From positions 24,412-88,411 of the forward strand of contig CATLFB010000007.1 in the NCBI GenBank assembly GCA_949927415.1: a stretch of DNA of 64,000 nucleotides. The letters are read 5' to 3'. This DNA comes from an uncultured Candidatus Melainabacteria bacterium (GTDB lineage: Bacteria; Cyanobacteriota; Vampirovibrionia; Gastranaerophilales; Gastranaerophilaceae). Position 1 is the first letter of the stretch. Each line of letters starts with the position of its first letter. Made by a program: the position numbers and the translations under genes. Positions 357 to 50,850 of the stretch are shown here, in pieces. The notes under the pieces are model-generated. The model was not told where the DNA came from and did not search any database. It worked only from the letters and a program-made list of their open reading frames with translations.

Positions 357-499
357 TGGATTTTGCGTAGAGTGAAGCGAAGCCGGAGCGCGATTAGCGC
401 AGAGGCGGAGCGGAACTCGAAGGAACGCCGAAAAAGTGAACGTCCATTTTGCGAGAGCAAAATAGAGTGAACGGCTTGAAGGCGTGAAGCAATAATCCA
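357..499. repeat. insertion-like sub-element (type 2) of the repeat family, copy A, 143 bp
   Basis: It starts TGGATTTT and ends AATAATCCA (inverted ends TGGATT/AATCCA). The interior is purine-rich with GAGCG/GTGAA motifs. It is homologous by eye to 39924-40050 and 50102-50305. Confidence 0.5.
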
Positions 500-990
500 G
501 GTGCTACGCACGTAGACACATTGGCTAGACATTAGTGATGGCGCTTTTGTAGATGTTTGTCATAGCATAGAAAAGTTAGTCAGGCCGCTGGTCTAGCGCA
601 ATGTCTTGCGCAGAAGTTCAAGAAGTGCTACAGGAGAATTAACGCACATAGACATATTGGAACTGTTATAACGGAGGTACTTTTGAAAGATTAAGGCGCG
701 AAAGTCCGGAATTAGGACAGATCCTTCGGGACGGACGCTGTTTTCTGGCAAAACTCTCAATCCCACGAAAATCGTCACACCCATCTCCAGGTAGAGGAGA
801 GGGCGGAATTTCAACTTGAGCCCGCTTGTGGCGCGCGAAAGTTGTGCTACGCACGTGGGAACATTGGAACTGAATTAGACAAAAGCCGCTTGTGAAAGAA
901 TTAGGTACAGAAATGCAGGATTAGGACGATGGCGCTTGGAACGGGCCAACGTTTTCTGACGATATTCAAAAAATGTCGCGGTGTTACACT
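357..990. repeat. composite tandem repeat array, locus A (one insertion-like sub-element, three ~140-bp units, one degenerate hairpin module)
   Basis: Anchors are CTACGCACGTAG at 504, a degenerate AACGCACATAG at 641, and CTACGCACGTGG at 846. Each is followed by ATTAG(G/A) sub-repeats, GCGCTT boxes and GT(C/T)TTNTGAC. The same family is seen at 39769-40690 and 49945-50850. Confidence 0.8.
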
Positions 991-5424: not shown

Positions 5425-5427
5425 ATT

Positions 5428-27900: not shown

Positions 27901-30519
27901 ATGACTTCAACAATTGAAAAAGTTGAATATAATGTTGCAAACAGTTTTGACAAAAACAACGAAATCATTCAAAGCTGGAAAGATGATTTACAAAAACTTG
28001 AAAACAAATTGGACGAAAATTCGAGAAATGCACAAGATTTACTGAGCGGCTCTCTCAAAGAATTTTCAGAAGATTTTAAAACAACCTCAACCGCCGCAAA
28101 AGATGAAATTATCTCAAACATCGGAGCCTTAGAATTAGATTTGATTTCTCAAATGGATTCTATAAAAGAGGATTACGCAAACGGCCGCGAAAAGCTGGAT
28201 TCCGTGTTGAACGCCTTGAATGAAAAAGTTGACATTCTTGCGCTTTCGGATACTTCGTCAAATATCGAAGAGCTGGTAGGTTCTCTGCGCGAAAAAATAG
28301 ATGCAATAGCAGATACCGAAAGCGATACCAAACTAAAAAGCATTGAATCCGCATTGGATACGCTCAGCAGTAAAATCGATATTCTGGCGCTTTCAGATGA
28401 CGAAACAGCCTTAGAAGAAGTTTCAGGCGCTATACAGTCAATCAATGACAAACTTTCGGATTTCTCAGCTAAGATAGAAAATTCAAAACAAAATGAACTG
28501 GAAAAACTTCTAAATATATTGAACGATAAAATAGATATAATCGCGCTTTCAGACGATAATACAGCGGCAGAAGAAATTGAAGGCGTCATAAAATCTTTGC
28601 ATGAAAAAATAGATATTTTAGCCCTGAGCGATAGCGATTCAAAACTTGATGAACTTGAAGATGTCATGAATTCACTGCATGCAAAATTAGATTTGATGGT
28701 GGAATCTTCTGAGGATACAAAATTAGATGAAATCGGAGATTCTGTAAAATCGCTGCATGCAAAATTGGATTTGATAGTCGAAAGCAGCGAAGAATCTAAA
28801 TTAGATGAAATCGACAGCACAGTCAAAAACTTGAATGATAAAATTGATGTCCTCGCAATTTCTGACGACAATGCAAAATTTGAAGAACTTGAAGATGTAA
28901 TCAAATCACTTCACGACAAGTTCGACCTGCTCGCAGAATCAGAAGATGAAACCAAACTTTTTGAAATAGAAGATTCAATCAAATCCTTGCACGAGAAATT
29001 TGACCTTATTGTTGAAACAGATGACAATTCAAAACTTGAGAAAATCGACAATGCTGTCAAAACTTTGCATGAAAAAATGGAACTTCTCTCAAATTCAAGC
29101 GATGTCGAAAAACTTGCAGGACTTGAAAATATCATAAAATCACTCGATGAAAAAATTGATATAATCGCCTCATCTGACGATGACACCAAACTCATTGAAC
29201 TTGAAGACGGAATCAAATCCCTTCACTCAAAAGTCGATGTAATAGCCTCATCTGATAATGAAGAAAAAATAGAAAACATGGTTCAGGCGCTCCATGACAA
29301 GGTGGATGTACTTGCCTCATCTGAGGATGCGGAATTGTACACAGAAATTCAGGACATAAAAGGCCTGATTGTAGAACAAAGAAAGCAAATCGAACAATTC
29401 GGAAACACAGAGCGCTCAGTTAATGTCGGAAAATATCTTGAAGATTTGGAAAACCGGCTTGCCGCACTCGATTTTGAGAAAAACGCAAGCGATATAAAGG
29501 ATTCCGTTATGAACGCAATCCTTGCTGTCGCAGACCAGATTACTTTTGCGGAAGAAACCGAAGAAATCAAAGACTTTGTTGAAGAAAGAACTGACGAAAT
29601 CAACAAAAATCTTCTCGATGTAAAAAAACAATTAAACAATATCGCCTGCAGTTCAGACGGCTGGGATTACTCATACACAATGCAGGATATCGAATCAGAT
29701 ATCGCAAAATTGAGAATAATCCTGAACGATATTTCATCCTCAACTTCAAAAGATGAAATAAACGAAATCTCTCAAAACATGCACAAAATCGCAGCCTCTG
29801 TAAACACTCTTCACAGCACGCTTACAGAAGAACAAATCCTTGAACTTAAAACCGATATCGAAAAAATCAATTCCGATGTCATAAGCCTGAGTTCAAGAAC
29901 AAACAAACTTCTTCTCTCATCCGATGAATCCTACAAAGCCCTCACCGACGGCCTTGATGAATTCAGCAGAGTAACCAACCAGCTGCAAAAACGTATCGAT
30001 GAACTTGATAACAGCGCACTCTCTGAAATCATCGAAAAGAAACTCGATAATATCAACGATGCTGTCACTTCTTCTGCAAATTCAGACAACATAATGCGTC
30101 AGGTAATGCTATATCTCGGCGAATGGATTGATGAGGCAAGTGCAAAATTAGACACAATCTCAAACGATACATCAAATTTGTCGCTCGTGAATTCAGAACT
30201 TTGCCTGCTCAAATCGAAACTTGACGACAAAGCTTTGATTGACACTGTTGAATCAAAATTCGAAGAACAGGAAAGCCGTATCGAAAGTTTGGAAAGAAAG
30301 CTTGAAGCAGTCTTGAATGCAGTCGAAAATTCAGGAAGCCAAAATCCTCAAATAAATAACGTGATGGAACTTTTTGATGATAAAATAAATTCAGTGGATG
30401 ATAAAATGTCTAATCTTGAAGAAAAAATTACAGCACTGAATTGCAAACTCGAAAAACTTGACGATAAATTAGACAAACTCTCAAAAGGAATAGAAAAACT
30501 GGCGTCTTATGTTGACTAA
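24958..30519 (+). CDS. giant acidic coiled-coil protein (1853 aa) with a tandem 26-residue repeat block
   Basis: Single uninterrupted ORF with an AAGGAAAA RBS region. There is no signal peptide or TM segment. It is E/D/K/L/I/N-rich throughout. Its stop overlaps the next gene's start by 11 nt. Confidence 0.85.
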   Translation: MAQTETDELLNSIKAEYQLNSEMFGKALTDINSKLEDIAHDSAAAELMNTGLQDLTAELGNRHRFISEKFENIKDSFEILNQNQDLLVKNSDLKIMFNILNENVDHFAHELSEQQALISDMESKFTEFRNDTSRKDEIIQNVSVVKEGIDEVNRGLQASIMEVNSNLRGITKTLMTMDATEQNDIMKRELENIYLAANAVLSSIQILDQKNDGLAKNIVCKDDLINLAGKIDNSFAIVSERIDSYESGSVEDTKKILAEIEKCRSEFNGFNENIVVRLSEYLNSVRDVLANCIDEIKQSQALSNIESDSIARQKFENLEKLSGEIKNIDSAISTQNDTYIGLVNDKIKELGSVIGDFKTYFTEIHAGDENALQIKFDSLDNLLAQGNAILQDKFSELQVKVENAVSIINQFAEDNNIKLGNSLSEISDIKSEISRILDNMTSFNSHQDAHLTHIDGRLEGDFAELKNNLNGFCSSFEALKYNLEQSNIDNRELLAEIVESASAKTREIVQNLANSSGENAAKTLNMQMEFLQEQFNDLKNVFTSIAAQNVQNILSVIENAFGKVDAAGENLAGKFDEKFTEVRDLLAFSGSENKQQIAELGDRINAAAQFNTGNIISGIETVSSKIDMMGVDLSTEIDNNFEMVRDFIEKSNADKDQHNADITALSDCIKILETEFTNNTEKFKNVLTEQMDSLDNYISVLKECNSKEEEENPNTEEFNKLNEKMLAIETAMHEAGENFSDNLMMVQNKIADYAHALDAVSDETGEKLDNSLIEISSVKFELVKILETLSQSGEDVSSKVSETLKDLIVKFEDIAMNVTDIKSDVNSNITSSIQENSAIIEEKFFILQELLNDNNLRNFDRISECDETLRNKIEDLKQEIGLINTDITDIITARTESLTYEFAPLKEAIDKFLNEDFDKIIDGVKSQIELSYLNFSADVNENLTENHDNYVQLNEAYQTLTGKFALVEEVINDLVQNQIGIMTSTIEKVEYNVANSFDKNNEIIQSWKDDLQKLENKLDENSRNAQDLLSGSLKEFSEDFKTTSTAAKDEIISNIGALELDLISQMDSIKEDYANGREKLDSVLNALNEKVDILALSDTSSNIEELVGSLREKIDAIADTESDTKLKSIESALDTLSSKIDILALSDDETALEEVSGAIQSINDKLSDFSAKIENSKQNELEKLLNILNDKIDIIALSDDNTAAEEIEGVIKSLHEKIDILALSDSDSKLDELEDVMNSLHAKLDLMVESSEDTKLDEIGDSVKSLHAKLDLIVESSEESKLDEIDSTVKNLNDKIDVLAISDDNAKFEELEDVIKSLHDKFDLLAESEDETKLFEIEDSIKSLHEKFDLIVETDDNSKLEKIDNAVKTLHEKMELLSNSSDVEKLAGLENIIKSLDEKIDIIASSDDDTKLIELEDGIKSLHSKVDVIASSDNEEKIENMVQALHDKVDVLASSEDAELYTEIQDIKGLIVEQRKQIEQFGNTERSVNVGKYLEDLENRLAALDFEKNASDIKDSVMNAILAVADQITFAEETEEIKDFVEERTDEINKNLLDVKKQLNNIACSSDGWDYSYTMQDIESDIAKLRIILNDISSSTSKDEINEISQNMHKIAASVNTLHSTLTEEQILELKTDIEKINSDVISLSSRTNKLLLSSDESYKALTDGLDEFSRVTNQLQKRIDELDNSALSEIIEKKLDNINDAVTSSANSDNIMRQVMLYLGEWIDEASAKLDTISNDTSNLSLVNSELCLLKSKLDDKALIDTVESKFEEQESRIESLERKLEAVLNAVENSGSQNPQINNVMELFDDKINSVDDKMSNLEEKITALNCKLEKLDDKLDKLSKGIEKLASYVD
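28200..29350 (+). repeat. in-frame tandem repeat, about 15 copies of a 78-nt/26-aa unit
   Basis: The unit consensus is roughly LEDxIKSLHxKxDxLAxSxDxxKLxE, for example LEDVIKSLHDKFDLLAESEDETKLFE and IEDSIKSLHEKFDLIVETDDNSKLEK. Confidence 0.85.
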
Positions 30520-39486: not shown

Positions 39487-39740
39487 ATATTCTCCCCTTC
39501 TGTAATAATCCTATTTCTCTACTATATTTTATATTCCCCGAAAAGACAACTTTTTAATATCCCAAGATGTTAAGTTTTGTAACTAAATATAAGAAAAATA
39601 TCACAAGTATGGCAATTTTATATACAAAAAATACTTTATATATATGAACACGAGGAACGCTTAAAATTGAGGAATCAAAGAGATTTTAAGCACACACTAC
39701 ACTTCACACTATTTGAGGAATGAATCAAAAGTTTATTCCA

Positions 39741-39768
39741 AGAGCCCCCTAAAAAGGGCTCTTTTTTT
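39741..39768 (+). terminator. orphan plus-strand rho-independent terminator
   Basis: AGAGCCC / GGGCTCT stem followed by T6-7. There is no annotated plus-strand gene upstream. Confidence 0.55.
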
Positions 39769-40690
39769 GTGCTACGCACGTAGACATATTGGCACTGAAT
39801 TAGGTGAAGAGCGCTTTTGCAAGAATTAGGCGCTAGATATTCTGAATTAGGACGAAACCGCTTGGAATAGCAATGTCTTCTGACTATTGTTGTGAAACGT
39901 GACGGGTTTATTACGCACGTAGATGGATTTTCGCACACGTGTAAGGAGCATGAGCGACTGTAACCCGAAAGAGCAACAATTCAACGGAGTGGCGTAAAGC
40001 CGTAAGGTTTTAAAAGCGGAGGCTTGAATTGTGCGTACCCGAATAATTCAGACATATAGGAACTGGATTAGATGAAGGGCGCTTGTGGAAGGATTAGACA
40101 TAGAAGTTCAGGATTAGGACGTGGGCGCTGGGAGCGATTGACGTCTTTTGACGATATTCAAAAATGCTATGATTAATTGACGCACGTAGGAACTTCGGGC
40201 TGGAAACAATTGAGAGGTGCATTTGGAAGAATCAGACGCTTGACGTTCAGGTTTAGGACAAAAGCGCTGGGTAAGGGCAACGTTTTTTGACGACACTCCG
40301 AAGTTTTAACTATAATCGTCGCAAAACCCCTCTCCTGGTAGAGGAGAGGGAAGAATTTCTTAACGAACCTCCGGTGAGTTTAGAAATTCGGGTGAGGTAC
40401 TACGTACGTAGATATATTGTCACAGAATTAGGCGAGAGGCGCTTTTGAAAGAATTAGTCATGGAAGTACAGAATTAGGACAATTGCGCTGTGAGATGGCG
40501 TCGTCTTGTGACGATTAATGTGAAATTGTGGCTGCTAGGTTACGTACGTAGCCATATTGTCACAGAATTAGGCAAAGCGCGCTTTAAAAAGAAGTAGACG
40601 CGAAAGTTCATAATTAGGACAAAGCTGCTAGGAAAAGCCGACGTCTTCCTGTGATATTTGTAAAATGCCGCGCTGAATTGCTGAACGCAA
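39769..40690. repeat. composite tandem repeat array, locus B (five ~140-bp units, one 127-bp insert, one ~85-bp hairpin module)
   Basis: Palindromic anchors are at 39772 (CTACGCACGTAG), 39912, 40180, 40400 (CTACGTACGTAG) and 40541. Each unit has three (G/A)(A/G)ATTAGG sub-repeats, GCGCT boxes and a GTCTTNTGAC(G) mini-hairpin. Confidence 0.85.
39924..40050. repeat. insertion-like sub-element (type 2), copy B, 127 bp, splitting a unit anchor
   Basis: The anchor reads ...CGTAGA | TGGATTTTCGC ... GAATAATTCA | GACATATAGG, whereas uninterrupted units read CGTAGACATATTGG. Confidence 0.5.
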
Positions 40691-40691
40691 T

Positions 40692-41843
40692 TTACAGACC
40701 CGGCCTTTGGTTAAGTTTCAACTCCTCAACCAATTCAAATACTGAAAGAAGTTCATCGAAAAGCTCCATGAATGTGTGGCTGTCGGTTTCTTTGTTGTAA
40801 TGCGACATCGCAAACAAATCGCGGCCGGCATGCAGTGCAAGTGTGATTTTTCCGTCTTTAAACGCTACACGCATGTATTTTGCTTTGAATGCGGTTTTGA
40901 TATTCTTTATTCTTTCGATAAACGCCGTTGTCAAAACGTAACGCGCCTCAACCTGATTATCTGAATAGATTTTATACATTTTGCCAAACTCTGTATCTTC
41001 AAGCTTTACTTCCTCAAACTTTGAACGGTTAAATTTTATCGTACGGCTTGTTTTTGCTCTTTCAAGGATAAATGTGTGTCCTTCAAAGTTTTTATTCATT
41101 TCAAATTCAACCACAACCCCGCGGAAAGGTGCCCTGCGTGTGCATTTCCAAAACAGAAAAATCGGCAAACCTAAAATTCCGATAAACATAAATGGCGGCC
41201 AGATAAAACTCAAAATTACGAAAATAATTGCATAAACAGAAAACCCGAAAGAGATTGCAAATATGCCTGCGGCAATATAAGCCATAATATTTTTTACGGA
41301 CGAAAGTGACGTATCGCATTCTAAAATATTAAAATTCACCCCCTTGTAATTTCCGCAAATTATATCGTCATAGCTTAAGAATAAATGCGGAGGCATAATA
41401 TTCAATAGTTTAAAATTTCTCGAATCCGGCATTATACCAAAATTCCTGCCTGTTAGAATTCTTAAAGCCTGCGGCCCCCAAAAAAGTTTATCAGAAAAAA
41501 TCTGCAAAAATTCCGGCATATATTTAACTTTGAAATCGTCTTCACTCATAATATTTATTTTGCCGCTCTTATCAGTCGCCAGCTTTGCTACTGCGAACAC
41601 AGAAACAAACCCAAGTATTGTCAAGAAAAGACCAAGTTTAATTATAATAGGCGTTTTGCCATTAATCGTAAAACCTCCAAAAAGACTCAATAACAGAAAG
41701 CCTGAAAGAATGCTGATAACTGAAAATTTCTGCACCGTTGAATATTTGCGGGCAATATTCAAGTTTTGAAGCTCAGGCTTAATCTTGTTAAAATAGAACT
41801 CTCTGAGTTCCGCTCTCATCTGCGAAATGCTTTTTTCTTCCAT
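40692..41843 (-). CDS. DUF3137-like membrane protein
   Basis: Multiple TM helices are present. The C-terminal block FGKMYKIYSDNQVEARYVLTTAFIERI resembles the DUF3137 signature as I recall it. Confidence 0.6.
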   Translation of the reverse strand: MEEKSISQMRAELREFYFNKIKPELQNLNIARKYSTVQKFSVISILSGFLLLSLFGGFTINGKTPIIIKLGLFLTILGFVSVFAVAKLATDKSGKINIMSEDDFKVKYMPEFLQIFSDKLFWGPQALRILTGRNFGIMPDSRNFKLLNIMPPHLFLSYDDIICGNYKGVNFNILECDTSLSSVKNIMAYIAAGIFAISFGFSVYAIIFVILSFIWPPFMFIGILGLPIFLFWKCTRRAPFRGVVVEFEMNKNFEGHTFILERAKTSRTIKFNRSKFEEVKLEDTEFGKMYKIYSDNQVEARYVLTTAFIERIKNIKTAFKAKYMRVAFKDGKITLALHAGRDLFAMSHYNKETDSHTFMELFDELLSVFELVEELKLNQRPGL

Positions 41844-41852
41844 AACCGTACC

Positions 41853-42647
41853 TTAAAATTTCGGAATTACATCTTCGAGATTACCATAATAACCTTCGTC
41901 AAGCAATTCGAAAAAACGTTGACAAGTAAAAGGCGCAAGCGCTTCAACCCATTCTCTGTCCAGATAAAGCCCTTCCACAAACCGCGCAAAAAGTTCTGTC
42001 GGACGTTTGTAATATTTGTTCAATTTATTTATGCGCGATGTTATGCGAGTCTGTTTTTTGGTATAAGATTTAAGTCTGATATACGCCGCAAACGCAGGCG
42101 GCATGTCCGGGAAACAGGCTTCTATCGTGTTGACTGTATAAATTTTCGGGGAAAACCTAAAAAATCCGCCCATAAGTTTTACCCTGTCATATTTTAAAAG
42201 ATATTTCGCATCTGAGCGCTTGATGTATTTGTCGAATTCTTTGAATTTCTTTGAACGCTTAAAATTCGGGTAGTCTTTCTTGATTGTTGAATCAAGTTCG
42301 AGGATTTTCTCTTTGACCCTTTCTTTGTGCTCTGTCAATCTTATGCAAAGTGAACTTTCATCAACAAAATTTGTCACTTTAAAAAGTTCTTCTGCTATAA
42401 CCGGATTTTCTGATTGAAAAAGTTTTTGAAAAGTTCCGCCGGTTTTCGGCATATCAGGTTCAAGCCCGAAATGTATGTAGTGCGCGAATTCATGCAGCAT
42501 TGTCGGCACAACCCTGTTCTGGGGAATATTTTTTGAAATATCAATTCTGTTTCTGCAGAAAAACCCTTGATGTCCGCGGGCTTTTGTTGTTGTGTGAACC
42601 TTAATTCCAAGACTTTTAAAATATTTCACCAGCGATTTTTTATCCAT
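41853..42647 (-). CDS. HExxH zinc-metallopeptidase-like protein (SprT-like context)
   Basis: ARGHQGFFCRNRIDISKN...TMLHEFAHYIH. The family assignment is uncertain. Confidence 0.55.
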   Translation of the reverse strand: MDKKSLVKYFKSLGIKVHTTTKARGHQGFFCRNRIDISKNIPQNRVVPTMLHEFAHYIHFGLEPDMPKTGGTFQKLFQSENPVIAEELFKVTNFVDESSLCIRLTEHKERVKEKILELDSTIKKDYPNFKRSKKFKEFDKYIKRSDAKYLLKYDRVKLMGGFFRFSPKIYTVNTIEACFPDMPPAFAAYIRLKSYTKKQTRITSRINKLNKYYKRPTELFARFVEGLYLDREWVEALAPFTCQRFFELLDEGYYGNLEDVIPKF

Positions 42648-42833
42648 GATTAATATTATAGCGCAATAAAATTCGACAATTAAACAAATCTGTAAAGCCC
42701 CTCTGTAATTGCGTAATATTACTTAAAAAAATCTTGAAGTTTGACCATATCGGATAAATAATAATTAGGCAGGACAAAATAATAATCTTCATTTATAAGA
42801 TTAACGCCATAGCTGGCGGCAGAAAGGATTAAA

Positions 42834-43847
42834 ATGGTATTAGAATTAGCATCCGGGCAACTAGAACGCGCAATTAACCCCACTCACGATATTAAACTTT
42901 TTGCAGGCCGTTCAAATACCAAACTTGCTCAGGAAATCGCAGATTATCTCGGAACCTCAATCGGTCCGATGGTTATTAAAAATTTTGCTGACGGTGAAAT
43001 TTATGTTCAGGTAAAAGAAAGCGTCCGCGGAGATGATGTTTTCATTATCCAGCCGCTTTGCAATCCTGTTAACGAAAACCTTATGGAACTGCTAATCATA
43101 ATTGACGCTTTCAAACGCGCAAGCGCAAAATCAATTACGGCAGTAATCCCTTACTACGGATACGCAAGACAGGACAGAAAAACTTCCGGCAGAGAAGCAA
43201 TTACTGCAAAACTTGTTGCGGATTTGTTGACAACAGCAGGCGCAAACAGAGTTCTTGCAATGGACTTGCACACCGGACAAATTCAAGGTTTCTTCAATAT
43301 TCTTGTTGACCATATTTTTGCAACACCGATTTTAGTCAATTACATCAAGAGCTTAAATATCGACCCTGATGATATGGTTGCAGTAAGCCCTGATACGGGC
43401 GGTGTTCAGCGCACAAGACATTTTGCAAAAGCTATCGGATGTTCTTTAGCGATTATCGACAAACGCCGCGACAAGCATAATGAAGCTATTGCATCTCATG
43501 TTATCGGTGATGTTCAGGACAAAATTTGTATAATGTTTGACGATATAATTGACACGGCAGGAACAATCTGCGAAGCGGCTAAACTTCTGAAACGCGAAGG
43601 CGCAAAAGATGTTTATGTCTGCGCGGCTCACCCTGTTTTCTCAGGCCCTGCCATTGAAAGACTTGCAAATGCTCCGATTAAGGAATGCATTGTGACAAAT
43701 ACAATTCCGCTTGATATGTCTAAAATGCCGCCGAATGTAAAACAACTTTCGGTTGCACCGCTTCTCGGTCAGGCAATTTCCAGAATCCATGATGATGAAA
43801 GCGTAAGTTCGCTTTTCGGATTTGAAAAAGATATTCAGGTAAACTAA
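42834..43847 (+). CDS. prs: ribose-phosphate pyrophosphokinase
   Basis: DLHTGQIQGFF and the PRPP-binding motif DDIIDTAGT. Confidence 0.95.
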   Translation: MVLELASGQLERAINPTHDIKLFAGRSNTKLAQEIADYLGTSIGPMVIKNFADGEIYVQVKESVRGDDVFIIQPLCNPVNENLMELLIIIDAFKRASAKSITAVIPYYGYARQDRKTSGREAITAKLVADLLTTAGANRVLAMDLHTGQIQGFFNILVDHIFATPILVNYIKSLNIDPDDMVAVSPDTGGVQRTRHFAKAIGCSLAIIDKRRDKHNEAIASHVIGDVQDKICIMFDDIIDTAGTICEAAKLLKREGAKDVYVCAAHPVFSGPAIERLANAPIKECIVTNTIPLDMSKMPPNVKQLSVAPLLGQAISRIHDDESVSSLFGFEKDIQVN

Positions 43848-43885
43848 CAAACCAAAAACTAATTGGAAGTAATAAGAAAAAGATT

Positions 43886-43918
43886 GCCGCTTTTGATTTT
43901 TTCAAAGCGGCGTTTTTC
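43886..43918 (+). terminator. rho-independent terminator after prs
   Basis: GCCGCTTTTGA / TCAAAGCGGC stem followed by GTTTTT. Confidence 0.8.
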
Positions 43919-44315
43919 TTTGCTGTAAGAATAAGAACAATTTTTACGCCGGAAATAGTGCTTTGAAGAGTAACTATGCGGCAGCGCCTCCGGGCTTTCG
44001 GCCTTAAATCAATAAAAAAAAGCCGTCTTTAATAAGAACGGCTACCAGACTTGGGGAGGAGGTATGAAAAACTTTCGTTTTCCATATCTGTATTATTTAA
44101 AACGGCTTTGGAAATTAAAAACTTTTACAAAATGCACAAATCTCATCCGTTTGATGTAGCTAAACAAGCCGCAGAAAACTCAAAAAAGAGGAGCTGCGCG
44201 GGGAAAAGTAAAGGAGCGGGCAGGCACAAACTTTACGCTAATGAAAAAATAACAGGCGCACTTTATTGTCAAATTCTGCGATTGTATTTTCTCTGAAATT
44301 TGCTATAATAAGCCT

Positions 44316-45062
44316 ATGAGCGAGATTGAAAAAAATTACGAAGACTTTATTTCGACCGTAAGCCATGAATTGCGCACGCCGTTGACCTCAATCAGAGGCT
44401 TTTCGCAAACAATGCTTTCATCATGGGACAAGCTTGATGATGAAAGCAAAAAAAGGTTTCTGAAAATCATCGAAGACCAGTCAAACAGGCTCATCAATCT
44501 TGTCGAAAACATGCTCTCAGTCACCCGCATCTCAGGCGGCAGAGAAAATCTTATCTTTAAAGAAATCAACGTAAAACCGGTTGTCGAAACAGTTGTGTCG
44601 ATTTTGAAAAACCAGTATAAAAATAAGAATTTTCAAATCGAAATAAATGAAAAAACTCCCCCGATACTTGCGGACAAAGACAAATTCCAGCAGATAATCA
44701 CAAATCTTACTGAAAACGCCGCAAAATACGGTGATGATACATCTCCGATTACAATCAGTACAGAATTTTGCAGGAATTGCGAATTTGTAGCGATAAAAAT
44801 TTCAAACTACGGAATCGAAATTAAAAAAGAAGATTACGAGCGGATTTTTACCAAATTTTCGCGCATTGACAATCCTCTGACGCGCAAGGTTCAAGGCAGC
44901 GGGCTCGGTCTTTACATCACCAAAAATCTGGTTGAAAAAATGAACGGAACAATTGGCGTTGAATGCAAAGCTGAAGGCAGCGGAAGGTTTTTGACTCAGT
45001 TTGAAGTGCTTTTGCCTGCCGCAGATATCGAAAAACAAGCGAGGGCAAAATGCAATCTGTAA
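44316..45062 (+). CDS. sensor-less histidine kinase (DHp + catalytic domain only)
   Basis: H-box STVSHELRTPLTSIRG, plus an N-box and a G-box (GSGLGLYI). 248 aa with no TM or sensor domain. Confidence 0.85.
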   Translation: MSEIEKNYEDFISTVSHELRTPLTSIRGFSQTMLSSWDKLDDESKKRFLKIIEDQSNRLINLVENMLSVTRISGGRENLIFKEINVKPVVETVVSILKNQYKNKNFQIEINEKTPPILADKDKFQQIITNLTENAAKYGDDTSPITISTEFCRNCEFVAIKISNYGIEIKKEDYERIFTKFSRIDNPLTRKVQGSGLGLYITKNLVEKMNGTIGVECKAEGSGRFLTQFEVLLPAADIEKQARAKCNL

Positions 45063-46345
45063 CTTTAATCATCGACAAACGCCGCGAACTTTCCGTGAAG
45101 TACAAAAAACTTCTCGAAAACGAACTTTCGACAGTCATCATCAGCAAAAACCTGATTTCTGCAATGAAATTAATTCAGGACAAAGAGCCGGATTTGATAA
45201 TCATTTCAGACAGCATTGACGGTGATTTGGGCGATTATTGCAAAAAAATTCGGGCGCTTACATACAACATGCGGCCCGTCATTGTTGCACTGTCAAAATC
45301 GGCGGAAGTTCAGGACAGACTGAATGCGCTTGTTTCGGGGGCTGATGATTTTTTGAGCGAGCCGGTTAACAGTGAAGAATTCATAATGCGAATGAAGGCG
45401 CACCTTCGCCGCGAATTCGAGTCAAACCTTGACAGCAAAAAGCTTTTGCCGAACAAAAATTACTCAATGCGAGCGCTGAAAAGGGTTTTAACGGCAAAAG
45501 AGGCATGGGGATGTCTTTATATCAGCATTGAAAATTTCTCGAACTATCGCGAAACATACACCGAACTTGCCTCAGACAAACTTATCCAGACCTATTGCGC
45601 AATCATGCAGTCGGCATTGAATGAAGAAGATTATCTGGGCGGAATTTCAGAAAACGAATTTTTGATAATCACAAATGCGCTAAAGGCTGAAAAAATCGCA
45701 AACTTTTTAGTTTTTGCGTTTGATTCTGTTGCGAAAAAATTCTATTCAGCGCAGGATATAAACCGCGGTTATGTAATCATGCAAGGAGATGAACTTGCCG
45801 GAAGGCGTTCAAACTTCGTCCACACAACCATTGGCGTTGTGACAAACGAGGTTCAAAAATACACTGACACAAACCGGCTTTTGACTTCTTTGAAAAATAT
45901 CCATGCTCTTGCGGATTTGCCCGACAGGTCGAATTACCTGATAGAGCGCGCAAAGATTTCGGGCGATGTAGAGACAAAACCCTTCAGTCATAAAATCGTC
46001 ATAATAGAGCCTGATGAGGCCATGAATATTCTCCTTAAAACTATTTTGGAACTTCAAGGATATGAAATCACGCTTTGCTCTGACATAACGGAAATAAGTG
46101 CTGAACAAAAGCCTTCTCTTCTTATTCTTGATGCCGGAAATGCCTCGGATTTGAAGGGTTTAGAGATGTGCAGACTTTTGCGCGAAAACCCCGAATTTTC
46201 AAATACAAAATTAATCGTAACTTCAATAATTCATGACAAAGAACTTGTCCTGAACTGCGGGGCTGATTTATATTTGCCAAAACCTTATGAACTTTCGAGT
46301 TTAATCAAATGGGTCAAAAAATTTGCAGACGAATTTCAGGCATAA
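45050..46345 (+). CDS. response regulator: degenerate REC - degenerate GGDEF-like - REC
   Basis: The first REC lacks the conserved Lys and one acidic residue. The middle domain has LGGISENEF in place of GGDEF. The C-terminal REC retains D (LLILD), T (VTS) and K (LPKP). It overlaps the kinase gene by 13 nt. Confidence 0.7.
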   Translation: MQSVTLIIDKRRELSVKYKKLLENELSTVIISKNLISAMKLIQDKEPDLIIISDSIDGDLGDYCKKIRALTYNMRPVIVALSKSAEVQDRLNALVSGADDFLSEPVNSEEFIMRMKAHLRREFESNLDSKKLLPNKNYSMRALKRVLTAKEAWGCLYISIENFSNYRETYTELASDKLIQTYCAIMQSALNEEDYLGGISENEFLIITNALKAEKIANFLVFAFDSVAKKFYSAQDINRGYVIMQGDELAGRRSNFVHTTIGVVTNEVQKYTDTNRLLTSLKNIHALADLPDRSNYLIERAKISGDVETKPFSHKIVIIEPDEAMNILLKTILELQGYEITLCSDITEISAEQKPSLLILDAGNASDLKGLEMCRLLRENPEFSNTKLIVTSIIHDKELVLNCGADLYLPKPYELSSLIKWVKKFADEFQA

Positions 46346-46417
46346 TTTTTCTGCTGTCTTCACGCATGACGGTCTCAAATCAATTATCCAAATGCACGGA
46401 AAAGAGAATCTGAGAAC

Positions 46418-48406
46418 TTAACCGTTTCCGTTGTGGATTCTGATGTAGTTCCAGTAGCTTCTGAAAACTTTTTTTACATAATTCTGTGTCTCAGGATATG
46501 GAATTTGTTCAACAAAATCGTCGCTGTCGTTGTAATAAAGCGTTTTTTGCCACTTTGTAACAGCACCGATTCCGCCGTTGTACGAGGCAATTGCAGAAAT
46601 ATCATGGCCTGAGAGAAGGCTTTTTATGTATGCATAATAGTAATTTCCGAGTTTTATATTGGATTCGGCATCATAAAGATTATACGCGCCAAGCCCTTTG
46701 ATTTTTGCGATTTCATCCGCCGTTGCAGGCATTATTTGCATAAGCCCTCTTGCGCCGACTCCGCTTGACGCTTCCGGATTGAAATAACTCTCTTCGCGTG
46801 TCAAACCAAGCATTAAAGGCGCATTGTTTCCGGTGCGGTCAGCGTATTTTTTGATTTCGTCATAATAATGAACCGGATACACAAGTCGCCAGCGCAAATC
46901 GTATTTATCGGGTTTTTCTTCCAATTTTTCCATCGCGTTTCTGGCTATCAGCATGGAACGCGAAAATTCACCATGTTTATACAAAATCCAGCTTTTTACA
47001 AATTCATCAGATCCGGCGATTTCGTTTAATACGTCGTAATCCTGCAATTCGACAAGTTTTTTGACTGTGGAATTTTTTATATTGTAAGGATATTCAACCG
47101 GTTTCGGGTTTATATAATCAATTATCAATGGTCCCGGGCGGTGATTCAGCCGAAGATACGCGCGGTATGCATAGTAGCTGTCGGGATAGGTTGAGATGAC
47201 TTTTTTGTAAATCCCCATGTATTCGCTGTAATCACGTGTCTTTTCCGCAAGTTTTCCCGTCCAGAACATTACCATTGGCGCAGATTCCCTGTCGCGGTAG
47301 CGGTTCAGGTAATCCTGTCCGATTTTTTTTGCATTGTTTATGTCGTTTGCCCGAACTGCATTCATAAATATTTCAGCCAGCGCTTTGTCTGTATATTTGC
47401 CGTTGGGGTAGGTGACGTAGAAATCTTTGTAACACTTGAGTTTGTCAGGCGCAGGTGAATATTTGCACTTCAAACTCGAAACATAATCAACGCCTTTTCC
47501 CGACAACTTCGACAAAAGCGTGTTCGCAGTTTGGAATTTTCCGGCCCCGCTCAAATCAAAATAAAGATTTATCGCATCAACCATATCGTCTTCCGAGACA
47601 TAAGATGTTTCGCCTGCAAAACCGTTTTCCAAAACCGAAAGCGCTTCTGCCTTGTGCCCTGTGACACTGAGGTTTTCGGCATTCAAAACCCAGCTTTCAT
47701 AAGAATTCGTATGCTCAAGAAGTTCTTTCACCCGCGGATATTCCCCAAACTTGAAAAGTGAATTCGCCATTATGAGATAATCATCGCCCGATATTGTTTT
47801 ATCAATCGAAAGCCAGTCGTTCACAACGTTTACGGCAAGCCTTCCGCCCGGCGCTTTTTTCAGATAATGCCTGAAATGCTCTTCAACATCATGTTTTTTC
47901 GATAGCGGGAAAATCGCATTTTCAGACTTTGTATATTCATTCATTGTAATTAGCCCTGAATAATATTCAGCAGCAATGGCATAATCGGAGTCAGGTGCAT
48001 CTTTTATTATTTGTTCAAAATATTTTCTTGCCTGCTTTGGATTGTCATCAACAAGCATTTGGGCGGCAAGATATTTTGAGCGCGTGCTTAAAGGATTTTT
48101 CGGATATTTTCCGAACAAAAACTGATACTTTCTTAAGGTCGAATCCTTGTCCCCGATTGCTTTTGCACATTCTGCCTGACGGTAAAGTGCCGCCGGCTTC
48201 AAATCAGACATCATCGAAATTTTCGAAAACAGATAATATGAATTTGAGTAATCCTCGCGCTTGAAGTCAGAAAGGGCTTCTCTGTATATTTTCATTGACT
48301 TTAAAGGCGTCTGGTAAAGCTTGTTGTAAAGGATTCCGCCGGCAAAACACAAAACAACCAGCGTTGAAGAAATAATTATTTTTTCACGTTTATTCATACC
48401 AATCAT
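46418..48406 (-). CDS. soluble lytic murein transglycosylase (Slt family) with TPR-like N-terminal region
   Basis: SLT motif REESYFNPEASSGVGARGLMQIMPATA, plus AYNGG and a signal/anchor sequence. Confidence 0.85.
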   Translation of the reverse strand: MIGMNKREKIIISSTLVVLCFAGGILYNKLYQTPLKSMKIYREALSDFKREDYSNSYYLFSKISMMSDLKPAALYRQAECAKAIGDKDSTLRKYQFLFGKYPKNPLSTRSKYLAAQMLVDDNPKQARKYFEQIIKDAPDSDYAIAAEYYSGLITMNEYTKSENAIFPLSKKHDVEEHFRHYLKKAPGGRLAVNVVNDWLSIDKTISGDDYLIMANSLFKFGEYPRVKELLEHTNSYESWVLNAENLSVTGHKAEALSVLENGFAGETSYVSEDDMVDAINLYFDLSGAGKFQTANTLLSKLSGKGVDYVSSLKCKYSPAPDKLKCYKDFYVTYPNGKYTDKALAEIFMNAVRANDINNAKKIGQDYLNRYRDRESAPMVMFWTGKLAEKTRDYSEYMGIYKKVISTYPDSYYAYRAYLRLNHRPGPLIIDYINPKPVEYPYNIKNSTVKKLVELQDYDVLNEIAGSDEFVKSWILYKHGEFSRSMLIARNAMEKLEEKPDKYDLRWRLVYPVHYYDEIKKYADRTGNNAPLMLGLTREESYFNPEASSGVGARGLMQIMPATADEIAKIKGLGAYNLYDAESNIKLGNYYYAYIKSLLSGHDISAIASYNGGIGAVTKWQKTLYYNDSDDFVEQIPYPETQNYVKKVFRSYWNYIRIHNGNG

Positions 48407-48563
48407 ATTTTACAATAATATCAGAAACTTCGCCAAAACAAAAATTTTTCAAGAAAAGTTACATTTATTAGCCAACAAATTACCTTTTTTTGATAATTTA
48501 TAATATAATAATCGTAAGAGATATATATGCCGTCGAAATGTTGCGGATAAAAGAGGAGTAAAA

Positions 48564-49961
48564 ATGTTCGGAATTATACTTGCCGGGGGTTCAGGAAGCA
48601 GATTGTGGCCGTTATCAAGGGATTTATGCCCTAAACAGCTTTTGAATTTGACAGGCGAAAACAGTCTTATCCAATCGACTTTCGAAAGGCTGCAGCATTG
48701 CATGCCTTCAGAAAATATTTTGAGCATAACTAACACAAAGCATCTTGCAAATATCAGAATGCAGTTGAAAGAACTGTACCAGAATCCGCTTGTACTCTCA
48801 GAATCGGTTTCAAAAAATACAGCTCCTGCAATCGCGCTTTCGACAAAATTTATTGCTGAAAATTACGGGAAAGACGAAATAATTCTTGCAGTTCCCTCTG
48901 ATCATCTGATAAATGACATTGAAAAATTTAAAAATTCTATTCAGCAGGGGGAAGAACTTGCAAAAGCAGGTTATATTGTAACTTTTGGGGTAAAACCTTC
49001 ATATTGCGAAACCGGTTTTGGATACATAAAATGCGCAGAAAAATGTTCTGATGGGTTCAGAGTAAAACAATTCTCGGAAAAGCCGGATATTGAAACCGCG
49101 CAAGAATATCTTCAGGATGAGACATGTTTTTGGAACAGCGGAATTTTCATGTTCAAAGCCTCGGTTTTGCTGGAAGAGATGCACATGCACTGTCCTGAAA
49201 TTTTCGAAATCTCACAAAGAATTGATATGAAAGACACGACAGAAATTCCGTTTGTGGAATTTGACAAGATGCCGAACATTTCGATAGATTACGCGCTTAT
49301 GGAAAAGTCTAAAAATCTTGTGATGGTTGAACTTGCGAGCGACTGGAAGGATGTCGGAAGCTGGGATGCGATTTATGATATAAGCAAAAAAGATGAGCGA
49401 AACAACGTGTTTGTCGGGCATGTTATGGATGAGAATTCAAAGAATTGTCTGGTATATTCATCTTCCAAGCTTGTTGCGACAATCGGCTTAGAGGATACGG
49501 TAATTGTTGAAACCGAAGATGCGATTCTTGCCTGCCGAAAGGACAAAACGCAGGATGTAAAACATATTTACGAAACATTAAAAGAGCAAAATGACGACAC
49601 ATCTCTTGTACACAAAACGGTTTACCGCCCATGGGGATTTTACACGGTAATTGCGCAGGGTGCGGGATTTTTGACGAAGATAATACATGTAAATCCGAAA
49701 CAGAAATTGTCGCTGCAGTCGCACAATCACAGGAGCGAGCACTGGGTTATTTTATCTGGCACCGCAAAGGTTGTACTGGGTTCAAAGGAATTAATTTTGA
49801 ATTCCGGCCACAGCGTGGATATTCCGGTAAAAGCGGTGCATTCACTTCAAAATCCGTACGATGAAGCCGTTGAAGTCATCGAGGTACAAAAAGGCGACAT
49901 CCTAATCGAAGAAGACATCATCCGCTACGAAGACATGTACGGCCGGGTGCTACGCACTTAG
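48564..49961 (+). CDS. manC: mannose-1-phosphate guanylyltransferase / mannose-6-phosphate isomerase
   Basis: ILAGGSGSRLWPLSR N-terminus and a C-terminal cupin (RPWGFY...HNHRSEHW). The last 4 codons and the stop lie inside a repeat anchor. Confidence 0.9.
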   Translation: MFGIILAGGSGSRLWPLSRDLCPKQLLNLTGENSLIQSTFERLQHCMPSENILSITNTKHLANIRMQLKELYQNPLVLSESVSKNTAPAIALSTKFIAENYGKDEIILAVPSDHLINDIEKFKNSIQQGEELAKAGYIVTFGVKPSYCETGFGYIKCAEKCSDGFRVKQFSEKPDIETAQEYLQDETCFWNSGIFMFKASVLLEEMHMHCPEIFEISQRIDMKDTTEIPFVEFDKMPNISIDYALMEKSKNLVMVELASDWKDVGSWDAIYDISKKDERNNVFVGHVMDENSKNCLVYSSSKLVATIGLEDTVIVETEDAILACRKDKTQDVKHIYETLKEQNDDTSLVHKTVYRPWGFYTVIAQGAGFLTKIIHVNPKQKLSLQSHNHRSEHWVILSGTAKVVLGSKELILNSGHSVDIPVKAVHSLQNPYDEAVEVIEVQKGDILIEEDIIRYEDMYGRVLRT

Positions 49962-50850
49962 ACACCCTGGGTCTGTCATACAAGTGGCGCTTGTGAAGGA
50001 ATTAGGCGCGGAAGCGCAGAATTAGGATGAATGCGCTAAGAAAAAGCTATGTCTTTTGACGATTGTTGTGAAATTGTTACGGTTTTTATTACGCACGTAG
50101 ATGGATTTTCGCACACGTGAAAAGAGCGTGAGCGACTGGAACCCGTAACATCCAAAGCACCGTAGCGAGCGCGAGTCGGCAGAGGGTGAAAAGCATTGCG
50201 TGGAGCAACGCTTTGGAACCCGTTTAGCGCCGCCGAGCAAGACAGCGGCAAAATCGCGTGAGCGATTTGTAGCGAGCATAAGGTGCAGGACAGCCGAATA
50301 ATCCAGACACATTGGAACTGAATTAGGTGAATAGCTCTTTTAAAGATATAGACGCTGGACGTTCAGAAATAGGACGGAGGCGCTGGTAACAGACGCCCTC
50401 TTATGGCGACATCTGCAAAATGCTGACGAAAATCGTCGCATCCCCTCTCCTGGTAGAGGAGAGGGAAGAATTTCTTAACGAGCCAATGCGAGTTTAGAAA
50501 TTCGGGTGAGGTACTACGTACGTAGGCACATCGGAACGGTTATACCGTGGGTGCTTTTGAAAGAAACAGACAAAGAAATCTGAAATTATGACAAGGCCGC
50601 TTGGAAAGGCCAATGTCTTCTGATGATTATCACCAAATGTCACGATGTATTTGATGTACGTAGGCACATCGGAACGGTTATACCGTGGGCGCTTTTGAAA
50701 GAATTAGACAAAAAAACGGAAATTATGACAAAGCCGCTTGGAAAGTCCAATGTCTTTTGACAATTTCGAAAAAGCCCCGATGAAATTACGCATGTAAACA
50801 TATTAGGTCTGAATCAGGCCATAGGCACCGGCGAAGAATTTATCGCTTCC
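49945..50850. repeat. composite tandem repeat array, locus C (about 4.5 units, one 204-bp insert, one hairpin module)
   Basis: Anchors are at 49950 (CTACGCACTTAG), 50089, 50514 (CTACGTACGTAG), 50656 and a degenerate one at 50787. The architecture matches locus B. Confidence 0.85.
50102..50305. repeat. insertion-like sub-element (type 2), copy C, 204 bp with internal duplication
   Basis: TGGATTTTCGCACACGTG... ...GCCGAATAATCCA, inserted at the same position of the anchor as copy B. GGAACCCGT and GTGAGCGA motifs occur twice. Confidence 0.5.

What the first reader, a model, noticed from the sequence alone, without database searches (positions are those of the whole stretch)
39769..40690. Undescribed ~140-bp tandem intergenic repeat family opening with a CTACG(C/T)ACGTAG palindrome
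Five head-to-tail units lie between the DUF3137-like gene's 3' end and surE. Each unit starts with an inverted-repeat anchor: CTACGCACGTAG at 39772, and the perfect 12-bp palindrome CTACGTACGTAG at 40400. Each unit then contains three spaced (G/A)AATTAGG boxes, two GCGCT(T/G) boxes, and a conserved GTCTTNTGACGAT mini-hairpin. Units are diverged (roughly 70-85 percent identical by eye) but collinear. The same family forms arrays at 357-990 and 49945-50850, so about 2.4 kb, or 4 percent of this window, is this repeat. The arrays are not CRISPR, REP/BIME-like short palindromes, or any named family I recognise. The regular internal boxes would suit an array of protein-binding sites. They would equally suit tandem small-RNA genes, as with the NsiR1 repeats of Nostoc. 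I could not find a convincing promoter or terminator per unit.
Basis: seen in the sequence. Interest (0 to 1): 0.7.

Follow-up and report, generated by a model that had tools for sequence, protein, structure and literature searches.

The report
Modular intergenic repeat family after stop codons
The ~140-bp repeats are real and belong to an undescribed family of non-coding DNA modules in uncultured human-gut Melainabacteria that sit directly behind the ends of genes, vary in copy number between strains and keep short conserved sequence boxes; they behave like the interspersed repeats known from mycobacteria and E. coli, not like small-RNA genes.

Summary
A profile finds 12 units plus a fragment of ~140 bp, all on the + strand, in three arrays (357-986, 39770-40690, 49948-50843). 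The arrays are mosaics, not pure tandems. The unit (U) is interleaved with a two-hairpin module (H) and a module with inverted ends (B).

The organism is a gut Gastranaerophilales MAG close to Candidatus Scatenecus faecavium. The family occurs in at least three related lineages, and one further relative has no unit in the loci held. At seven distinct sites the modules start at, or within about two bases of, the end of a co-oriented gene or sRNA. Two sites are inside ribosomal-protein operons. Natural stops abutted by a module are TAG, against 12% TAG in the window.

Copy number differs between strains, and empty sites exist. U has no conserved RNA fold and no per-unit promoter or terminator. 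Its boxes stay about 82% identical within and between species, while other columns fall to 40-47%.

I read this as a MIRU/BIME-like modular intergenic repeat family with protein-recognised boxes. Tandem sRNA genes are not supported. It is a new member of a known kind, and of moderate interest.

The parts
357..499 (+). B-type module (ends GGATTTT...AATAATCC) that opens array 1, two bases after the TAA stop of ORF 17-355
   Evidence: Sequence. The same ends occur in the B copies at 39923 and 50101, and directly after the rplC stop in L163 and L160.
501..641 (+). U unit, array 1, unit 1 (subtype with ACATTAG boxes); anchor GTGCTACGCACGTAG at 501-515
   Evidence: nhmmer E = 5e-8. Same subtype as the rplF-rplR units in L130.
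642..765 (+). U unit, array 1, unit 2, with its 3' end replaced by H
   Evidence: nhmmer E = 2e-17.
766..844 (+). H module (two hairpins), older and degenerate copy
   Evidence: 77-82% identical to the H copies at 40327 and 50442 (families D10 and D11).
845..986 (+). U unit, array 1, unit 3
   Evidence: nhmmer E = 9e-38.
39610..39769 (+). Conserved sRNA-like block with an intrinsic terminator (39740-39769). This is the co-oriented transcription unit that array 2 abuts.
   Evidence: 97.5% identical to S. faecavium, against 79% for surE. Fold z = -4.97. Terminator scan.
39770..39910 (+). U unit, array 2, unit 1; starts right after the terminator T-run
   Evidence: nhmmer E = 1e-36. An orthologous unit sits at the same place in L136.
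39911..39922 (+). Anchor of array 2 unit 2, split from its body by the B insertion
   Evidence: Sequence. Alignment of arrays 2 and 3.
39923..40051 (+). B module inserted after the anchor ...ACGTAG
   Evidence: Its 5' half is about 93% identical to the copy at 50101.
40052..40177 (+). Body of array 2 unit 2
   Evidence: nhmmer E = 1e-32.
40178..40312 (+). U unit, array 2, unit 3
   Evidence: nhmmer E = 1e-18.
40313..40397 (+). H module: hairpin 1 is 40328-40335 with 40343-40350; hairpin 2 is 40353-40360 with 40382-40389; tail GGGTGAGG is 40390-40397
   Evidence: Sub-threshold Rfam whalefall-1 match at 19.2 bits. The hairpin 2 stem differs completely in three lineages while pairing is kept.
40398..40538 (+). 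U unit, array 2, unit 4 (anchor is the perfect palindrome CTACGTACGTAG)
   Evidence: nhmmer E = 8e-36.
40539..40690 (+). U unit, array 2, unit 5, and the end of the array, next to the DUF3137 stop codon
   Evidence: nhmmer E = 1e-35.
49948..50088 (+). U unit, array 3, unit 1. Its anchor GTGCTACGCACTTAG supplies the last four codons and the TAG stop (49959-49961) of the manC-like gene.
50089..50100 (+). Anchor of array 3 unit 2, split from its body by B
50101..50306 (+). B module, long form
   Evidence: A solo reversed copy lies at about L130:3170-3375.
50307..50432 (+). Body of array 3 unit 2
   Evidence: nhmmer E = 4e-19.
50433..50511 (+). H module, 96-100% identical to the copy at 40313-40397
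   Evidence: (families D11, D17), and whalefall-1 at 19.1 bits.
50512..50650 (+). U unit, array 3, unit 3
   Evidence: nhmmer E = 4e-36.
50651..50786 (+). U unit, array 3, unit 4 (83% identical to unit 3, so a recent duplication)
50786..50843 (+). Truncated U fragment that closes array 3
   Evidence: nhmmer E = 1e-3.

Best explanation
This is a lineage-restricted family of non-coding, modular intergenic DNA elements in Candidatus Scatenecus-like Gastranaerophilales. It is analogous to mycobacterial MIRUs and enterobacterial BIMEs. Three module types take part. U is a ~140-bp unit with a palindromic anchor. It carries two copies of a ~28-nt bipartite motif (AATTAGG, then 6 bases, then GCGCT), a third ATTAG box and a small hairpin. 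H is two hairpins plus GGGTGAGG. B has inverted ends GGATTTT/AATAATCC. Shown: the modules settle at, or within about two bases of, the 3' end of a gene or sRNA, in that gene's orientation. Usually they sit just 3' of a TAG. Sometimes they replace the last codons and supply the stop themselves. Inferred: insertion is directed to the 3' side of TAG on one strand, and only insertions at a stop codon or in a spacer survive. That would explain both the abutment and the co-orientation. Shown by strain comparison: once in place, the arrays gain, lose and exchange modules. Inferred: this happens by recombination at the palindromic anchors. Inferred from position only: the arrays are carried on the 3' UTR or intercistronic RNA of the upstream gene. 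They are not independent genes. Shown: the boxes are held by purifying selection. Inferred, with the partner unknown: they are recognition sequences for a protein, either the mobilising enzyme or a host DNA- or RNA-binding factor, and not RNA structure.
For: Dispersal and taxonomy: units occur in the window MAG (GCA_948474565.1), in S. faecavium (L118, L136, L139-146, L157-164) and in a third lineage (L147). Position: at seven distinct sites the modules are co-oriented with, and start at or within about two bases of, the upstream feature. The sites are rplC, rplF, the 112-aa ORF, the sRNA, manC, recA and a 234-aa gene. TAG: natural stops abutted by a module are TAG at rplF, rplC and the 234-aa gene. 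For the 112-aa ORF the stop is TAG in three of five lineages, including the empty site. The window background is 5 TAG in 42 stops. Presence and absence: the site after the 112-aa ORF is empty in L151, holds U+H in L147, and holds B-U-U-H-U in the window. recA has an array in one lineage and none in a relative whose RecA is at least 90% identical. Copy number: the recA array has 2 or 3 U units in strains with identical RecA. Array lengths also differ between assemblies of the window species. Module exchange: directly after the rplC stop there is a B module in some genomes and an H module in others. Selection: box columns are 0.82 identical within species and 0.83 between. Non-box columns are 0.47 and 0.40. 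surE four-fold degenerate sites between the two species are 0.37. The orthologous unit at the surE site is 74% identical overall, and 62% at non-box columns. Hairpins: the type II anchor stem (GCACAC / GTGGAC / GCGGAC, each with its complement) and the H hairpin 2 stem change on both sides while pairing is kept. Not RNA genes.
Against: No transposase, recombinase or other candidate mobilising gene lies next to any array in about 250 kb of held sequence. No target-site duplication could be shown, because the flanks of filled and empty sites are too diverged. Three junctions are not preceded by TAG: the sRNA terminator, manC and recA. Other TAG-ending genes in the window carry no module. Per-copy conservation of the boxes over a time in which synonymous sites have saturated is more than a purely selfish element needs. 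It points to a host or cis function that I cannot name. All four arrays of the window species are on one strand, which is also the G-rich and probably leading strand. Orientation could therefore follow replication and not transcription. Transcription was not observed. The genome-wide census failed, because my genome-contig scan was wasted.
Confidence: 0.55

Rival explanations
1. The modules are host cis-acting 3'-end elements. They are kept because they do something for the upstream transcript or the local DNA. Examples would be a platform of single-stranded RNA motifs for an RNA-binding protein or RNase, hairpins that block 3' exonucleases as REP does, or binding sites for gyrase or a nucleoid protein at the ends of transcription units as BIME does. 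On this reading, mobility is secondary.
For: The boxes are conserved equally within and between species, while the other columns are near saturation. The orthologous unit at the surE site is conserved well above neutral sites. The position is always at the 3' end of a co-oriented unit, including inside r-protein operons, where the array must be transcribed. G.U cells in the mini-hairpin fit the + strand only. The units are moderately purine-rich, like sense strands.
Against: Presence is patchy. The same gene has an array in one lineage and none in a sister lineage. Different modules can replace each other at one junction. Copy number varies between strains. No partner protein was identified. 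GGA motifs are not enriched, and no CsrA, Hfq or FliW gene lies in the held DNA.
Confidence: 0.25
2. The arrays are non-coding cassette arrays built by site-specific recombination. Each body plus palindromic anchor would be a cassette inserted at an anchor by a dedicated recombinase, integron-like or Xer-like. That would give anchor-(body-anchor)n arrays in one orientation.
For: Arrays start with an anchor and end with a usually degenerate one. B is inserted exactly after the anchor's GTAG in two arrays. H and B alternate at the same junction after rplC. The anchors keep their palindromy through compensatory changes.
Against: There is no integrase or recombinase gene near any array. There is no attC-like pair of inverse core and core sites, since all ATTAG boxes are direct repeats. 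Arrays sit at many loci and not at one platform. Arrays 2 and 3 are collinear copies of each other, which fits duplication of whole arrays better.
Confidence: 0.1
3. The units are tandem small-RNA genes, each one an independently transcribed sRNA as in the NsiR1 arrays of Nostoc. This was one of the first reader's two suggestions.
For: The units are of sRNA size and all in one orientation. One strong promoter-like site (TTGACG, 18-nt spacer, TATAAT; 40287-40316) would start transcription at the H module of array 2.
Against: That promoter is not present at the equivalent position in the other arrays. Promoter-like and terminator-like sites are no more frequent than in shuffles and do not recur per unit. 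There is no conserved fold, and folding energies equal those of shuffles. No Rfam family matches.
Confidence: 0.04
4. The repeat is a neutral local minisatellite: plain slippage or duplication products with no dispersal mechanism and no constraint.
For: Neighbouring units can be very similar (83-93% for the last two units of array 3). Copy number varies between strains.
Against: The family sits at seven or more unlinked sites in three lineages, with the same boxes. Box conservation is far above that of four-fold degenerate sites. The placement at gene ends is non-random.
Confidence: 0.03

Closest known systems
MIRU (mycobacterial interspersed repetitive units)
   Same: MIRUs are tandem direct units dispersed over many intergenic sites, including inside operons. 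They are transcribed with the flanking genes, and their ends overlap the neighbouring genes. Filled and empty sites are found between species, and copy number is polymorphic between strains. This description of MIRU comes from the Delihas review (PMC3184786).
   Different: The units here are longer (~140 bp against 40-100 bp) and unrelated in origin (Melainabacteria against Actinobacteria). They hold no small ORFs coupled to the flanking genes. They are mixed with two other module types. No tetranucleotide direct repeats could be shown at filled sites.
REP/BIME (bacterial interspersed mosaic elements) of enterobacteria
   Same: Both are mosaics of several short motif types at the 3' ends of genes and between cistrons. 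Both have palindromic modules with compensatory changes. REP has a conserved GTAG-type tetranucleotide at its palindrome (from my own knowledge of the REP/RAYT literature), and GTAG is the invariant core of the anchors here.
   Different: REPs are 20-40 bp GC-rich palindromes arranged in alternating orientation. Here the main unit is a 140-bp non-palindromic direct repeat with sequence boxes. No RAYT-type (REP-associated tyrosine transposase) gene was seen.
BOX elements of Streptococcus pneumoniae
   Same: BOX elements are modular (boxA, a variable number of boxB, boxC), non-coding, intergenic and transcribed (PMC3184786).
   Different: The modules are different. BOX elements form one long hairpin, which U does not. 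BOX has no reported preference for the position directly after stop codons.
Whalefall-1 RNA motif (Rfam RF01762)
   Same: The H module of the window species aligns over the whole model. The match is CCUCUCC...GGAGAGG, then a variable second hairpin, then GGGUGAGG. [quoted passage not shown]
   Different: The score is 19.2 bits against a gathering score of 37. The loop of hairpin 2 is 21 nt against 6. H copies of S. faecavium give no match. nhmmer finds nothing in either direction. The flanks of the whale-fall contigs show no U units. This is a resemblance, not membership.
NsiR1 tandem sRNA genes of Nostoc
   Same: Both are head-to-tail non-coding units of sRNA size.
   Different: Each NsiR1 repeat has its own promoter and terminator (my own knowledge). 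Neither recurs here, and there is no conserved fold.
IS200/IS605-derived non-autonomous elements (PATEs)
   Same: Both show strand-specific insertion immediately 3' of a short fixed sequence with no evident target duplication. Both have hairpins near the element ends. Both show one-strand bias.
   Different: No Y1 transposase was found. The left ends of U, H and B differ. Tandem arrays are not typical of PATEs. This is an analogy for the mechanism only.

Membership tests
Any Rfam 15 family | A covariance-model score at or above the family's gathering threshold | tested here: not met
   Across the whole window only a tRNA passes. Permissive scans of all three arrays give nothing better than whalefall-1 at 19 bits.
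Whalefall-1 RNA (RF01762) | [quoted passage not shown] | tested here: met
   The H module aligns to model positions 1-56 of 56, with both stems and GGGUGAGG.
Whalefall-1 RNA (RF01762) | Score at or above the gathering score of 37 bits, and recognisable across H copies | tested here: not met
   19.2 and 19.1 bits. There is no match for S. faecavium H copies and no nhmmer match.
CRISPR array | Short (about 23-47 bp) near-identical repeats separated by unique spacers of similar length, usually with cas genes | tested here: not met
   The units are about 140 bp and 57-83% identical, and homologous along their whole length. No cas domains were found in the window.
REP/BIME | 20-40 bp imperfect palindromes, clustered in alternating orientation | tested here: not met
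   All units are direct and on one strand. Only the 12-15 bp anchors and the H hairpins are palindromic.
REP/BIME | An associated RAYT (Y1 transposase) in the genome | not testable with these tools
   The whole genome is not held. No Y1_Tnp domain appears in the gene tables.
MIRU-like interspersed tandem units | Tandem direct units at many intergenic sites, including within operons, co-oriented with the flanking genes | tested here: met
   Seven sites. rplF-rplR and rplC-rplD lie inside r-protein operons.
MIRU-like interspersed tandem units | Unit ends overlap the stop or start codons of the flanking genes | tested here: met
   The manC and recA stop codons lie inside the first anchor.
MIRU-like interspersed tandem units | Copy-number polymorphism between strains, and filled versus empty sites between species | tested here: met
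MIRU-like interspersed tandem units | Small ORFs within units that are translationally coupled to the neighbouring genes, and sequence homology to mycobacterial MIRUs | tested here: not met
   No ORF runs through the arrays. Homology to MIRU sequences was not tested and is not expected. This is an analogy, not membership.
NsiR1-type tandem sRNA genes | A promoter and a terminator in every unit | tested here: not met
MITE | Terminal inverted repeats plus a target-site duplication | tested here: inconclusive
   B has inverted ends GGATT(T/A)TT. An AGA duplication is possible at two copies but is absent at the others. U has no terminal inverted repeats.
Integron cassette array | attC sites with paired inverse core and core, and an intI integrase with attI nearby | tested here: not met
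   All ATTAG boxes are in direct orientation. No integrase lies in the window or the flanking loci.
Type III toxin-antitoxin (ToxI-like repeats) | A short tandem RNA repeat array immediately upstream of its endoRNase toxin gene | tested here: not met
   The downstream genes differ at every site: rplR, folD, DUF3137, sdaB and a hypothetical gene.

The most novel reading that the evidence does not exclude
U, H and B may be interchangeable non-coding cassettes of one so far unknown insertion system that recognises the 3' side of TAG, and so places cargo directly behind stop codons in the sense orientation. The box-rich U units would then have been retained by the host as protein-binding platforms on 3' UTRs or on DNA at the ends of transcription units. 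That would be a stop-codon-adjacent cassette system with no described counterpart.
Probability: 0.15. Interest if true: 0.7.

Novelty: new member of a known kind. Interest (0 to 1): 0.4.

Why it matters
Interspersed intergenic repeats have not, as far as I could find, been described for Melainabacteria, the non-photosynthetic sister group of cyanobacteria that lives in the human gut. This family fills about 4% of the window and breaks MAG assemblies, since contigs end inside arrays. It alters the C-termini of housekeeping proteins (ManC, RecA) and sits inside ribosomal-protein operons. Its copy-number variation could serve for strain typing, as MIRU-VNTR does. The strict placement behind TAG stops, and the swapping of modules at one junction, point to a targeted insertion or recombination mechanism. 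The per-copy conservation of the boxes points to an unidentified binding partner. Both can be tested.

Tried and rejected
1. My genome-contig scan used a 17-letter pattern that was too unspecific.
2. A 24-base two-gap pattern found only 3 metagenome loci and none in viral contigs.
3. A structured-RNA reading of U is rejected.
4. A CsrA-sponge reading is rejected. GGA is not enriched (z = 1.4), and no CsrA, FliW or Hfq gene lies in the held DNA.
5. A three-frame TAG stop-trap idea is rejected. TAG is only weakly enriched (z = 2.1), and several units lack a TAG in one frame.
6. Small peptide genes starting at the conserved ATGTCTT are rejected. The ATG is ACG in about a third of units, and the reading frames differ in length.
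7. A LexA-box or NtcA-box reading of the anchors is rejected because the spacing does not fit. This was by eye only.
8. An association with the DUF6613/HTH gene pairs is not consistent across loci.
9. Membership of H in whalefall-1 is not sustained.
10. No target-site duplication could be read, because the flanks of filled and empty sites are too diverged.
11. Walking further along the contig found no more arrays in the next 10 kb downstream.
Full report

Yes. The anchors are at the stated positions. A profile built from eight seed units finds 12 units and one fragment, all on the + strand. They lie in three arrays at 502-984, 39770-40678 and 49948-50833, and nowhere else in the 64 kb. TRF and the repeat finder find the same family.

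The arrays are mosaics, not pure tandems.
- The ~140-bp unit, which I call U, is the main component.
- H is an ~85-bp module with two hairpins and a GGGTGAGG tail (766-844, 40313-40397, 50433-50511).
- B is a module with inverted ends GGATTTT...AATAATCC (357-499, 39923-40051, 50101-50306).
- Each array holds one H and one B.
- In arrays 2 and 3, B sits exactly after the ...ACGTAG anchor of the second unit and splits that anchor from its body.
- Arrays 2 and 3 are collinear copies of each other. H plus the next anchor is 96-100% identical, the 5' half of B is about 93% identical, and the U bodies are about 70% identical.

No ORF runs through the arrays.

**2. Organism and distribution**

The window matches contig CAOLBY010000007.1 of MAG GCA_948474565.1 and many human-gut assemblies. 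The repeat pattern found three further human-gut metagenome loci and no viral contig.

The RecA protein next to one of those loci is that of Candidatus Scatenecus faecavium (Gastranaerophilales, Melainabacteria). Other proteins of the related loci carry the same name. The window species is a relative. Its surE gene is 79% identical in DNA to that of S. faecavium, and four-fold degenerate sites are only 37% identical.

Units occur in the window species, in S. faecavium and in a third lineage (L147). A further relative (L121-L129) has none in 21 kb around recA. There is nothing similar in phage or plasmid collections. I found no description in the literature searched. My genome-contig scan was wasted on a pattern that was too short, so there is no wider census.

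**3. Context**

At every site seen, the first module starts at, or within about two bases of, the end of a co-oriented gene or sRNA.

| Upstream feature | Genome | Junction and modules |
|---|---|---|
| rplF | window species, between rplF and rplR in the spc operon | AAATAG followed by TGCTACGCACGTAG, two U units |
| rplC | window species and two S. faecavium strains, between rplC and rplD | TAG followed by a B module |
| rplC | five other S. faecavium strains, same junction | TAG followed by an H module |
| 112-aa ORF before folD | L151 lineage | empty site, 28-bp spacer |
| 112-aa ORF before folD | L147 lineage | TAG followed by U+H |
| 112-aa ORF before folD | S. faecavium | U...H, or U-U |
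| 112-aa ORF before folD | window | B-U-U-H-U |
| sRNA-like block next to surE | window and S. faecavium | array starts right after the terminator T-run |
| manC | window | the anchor GTGCTACGCACTTAG supplies four codons and the stop |
| recA | S. faecavium | the anchor GCACACGTAGTGTGC replaces the last codon and the stop |
| 234-aa gene | S. faecavium | a solo H module after its TAG |

That makes seven distinct sites, all co-oriented. Natural stops abutted by a module are TAG, although only 5 of 42 stops in the window are TAG. Other TAG-ending genes in the window carry no module, so TAG is not sufficient.

All four arrays of the window species are on the + strand. That strand is also G-rich throughout, so transcription and replication orientation cannot be separated here.

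**4. Dynamics**

- The recA array has two or three U units in strains with identical RecA.
- Array lengths differ between assemblies of the window species, and contigs often break inside arrays.
- H and B replace each other at the rplC junction.
- The ~10-kb segment between arrays 2 and 3 is absent between surE and sdaB in S. faecavium.

**5. Anatomy and constraint**

U has no conserved secondary structure.
- RNAalifold finds only the 4-bp mini-hairpin, at -1.6 kcal/mol.
- Single units fold like shuffles on both strands.
- The mini-hairpin is 91% paired but shows no double-sided change. Its 15 G.U cells would be mismatches on the other strand, which is a weak hint for the + strand.
- There is no recurrent promoter or terminator. 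One strong promoter-like site before H in array 2 is not shared by the other arrays.

What U does have is sequence boxes.
- 53 of 141 columns are at least 80% conserved, and these columns are clustered (p = 0.001).
- They include two copies per unit of a ~28-nt bipartite motif (CWGAATTAGG, 6 bases, GCGCT, 3 bases, GAAAG), read from the consensus.
- Box columns are 0.82 identical within species and 0.83 between species. Other columns are 0.47 and 0.40, against a random expectation of 0.26.
- The orthologous first unit at the surE site is 74% identical between the two species, and 62% identical at non-box columns. surE four-fold degenerate sites are 37% identical.

So individual old copies have been kept under purifying selection.

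The palindromic parts do covary. Type II anchors read GCACAC-GTA-GTGTGC, GTGGAC-GTA-GTCCAC and GCGGAC-GTA-GTCCGC. Hairpin 2 of H has three unrelated 8-bp stems: GAATTTCT/AGAAATTC, GTCAGTGT/ACACTGAC and TTCGGAGT/ACTCCGAA. All pairs are Watson-Crick, so the strand, and the choice between DNA and RNA, cannot be read from them.

**6. What it most likely is**

The behaviour is that of interspersed intergenic repeat families. The features that fit are:
- dispersal to many intergenic sites;
- co-orientation with the upstream gene and overlap of gene ends;
- presence inside operons;
- filled and empty sites;
- copy-number polymorphism;
- a mosaic of modules.

The closest match in behaviour is MIRU, and BIME and BOX match in their mosaic make-up (PMC3184786). 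I infer strand-specific insertion 3' of TAG, with survival only at stop codons or in spacers. That explains the abutment and the orientation together. I infer recombination at the anchors for array growth, loss and module exchange.

The boxes are best read as protein recognition sequences. Whether the protein is a mobilising enzyme or a host factor, and whether it reads DNA or RNA, is open. The per-copy conservation argues that the elements are more than decaying junk, and this keeps a host cis function as the main rival.

Tandem sRNA genes, a structured cis-RNA, a CsrA sponge, CRISPR, integron cassettes and a type III antitoxin all fail specific tests. The membership table gives the details.

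**7. H and whalefall-1**

H of the window species aligns over the full whalefall-1 model, with both stems and the purine-rich tail. The score is only 19 bits against a threshold of 37. H copies of S. faecavium do not match, and sequence profiles find nothing. This is a resemblance worth recording, not membership.

**8. Verdict**

The sRNA-gene reading is not supported, and the binding-site reading remains possible. The finding is a new member of a known kind (interspersed modular intergenic repeats) in a phylum where none had been described. Two features deserve follow-up: the placement behind TAG stops with module exchange at one junction, and the long-term conservation of the boxes. Interest is 0.4.

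Noticed in passing
window 39610-39769 (+): A ~160-nt block is 97.5% identical between the window species and S. faecavium, while the adjacent surE gene is 79% identical. It folds with z = -4.97, ends in an intrinsic terminator and carries three GAGGAA motifs. It is a candidate conserved sRNA with no Rfam match.
   Followed up: partly
L163:6194-6325, L160:6139-6260, L157:6135-6225 (rplC-rplD junction): Directly after the rplC TAG stop, the window species and two S. faecavium strains carry a B module. Five other S. faecavium strains carry an H module at the same junction. This looks like module replacement at one site inside the S10 operon.
   Followed up: partly
L130:2954-4398 and 4798-6604: The spc ribosomal-protein operon of this lineage is interrupted. 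About 1.4 kb lies between rpsN and rpsH, including a terminator, a reversed solo B module and small ORFs. GerE-like, DUF6613 and HTH genes lie between rpsH and rplF. DUF6613+HTH pairs sit at different loci in different relatives (L136, L151), as if they were mobile.
   Followed up: no
window 40692-49961 compared with L136:838-4792: The ~10-kb segment from the DUF3137 gene to manC, bounded by the collinear direct arrays 2 and 3, is absent between surE and sdaB in S. faecavium. This is compatible with recombination between arrays, or with integration of a circle that carried an array.
   Followed up: no
window 28282-29329 (inside ORF 24958-30519, 1853 aa): There are coding tandem repeats with a 78-bp period (26 aa), at least a dozen diverged copies, in a giant protein.
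   Followed up: no
window 3733-3862 (downstream of the rplI-like gene 3863-4417, - strand): The 130-bp spacer after this gene's TAG stop starts with TTTGATTGGATTTGG and ends near AAAGAATCC. It may be a small relative of the B module. I only saw this by eye.
   Followed up: no
window 58660-58723 / 60588-60651 and 60395-60562 / 62572-62739: Direct repeats 90-94% identical flank and overlap the paralogous SPM, TPR and Kelch-like genes. This looks like a recently duplicated gene cassette.
   Followed up: no
L157:5288-5498 (between rpsJ and rplC in S. faecavium): This 212-bp spacer has GC-rich, apparently structured sequence (GGCGCGGAGGGTGAAAGTCCCGAAGG...). It may be an r-protein leader or another RNA element. 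I did not analyse it.
   Followed up: no
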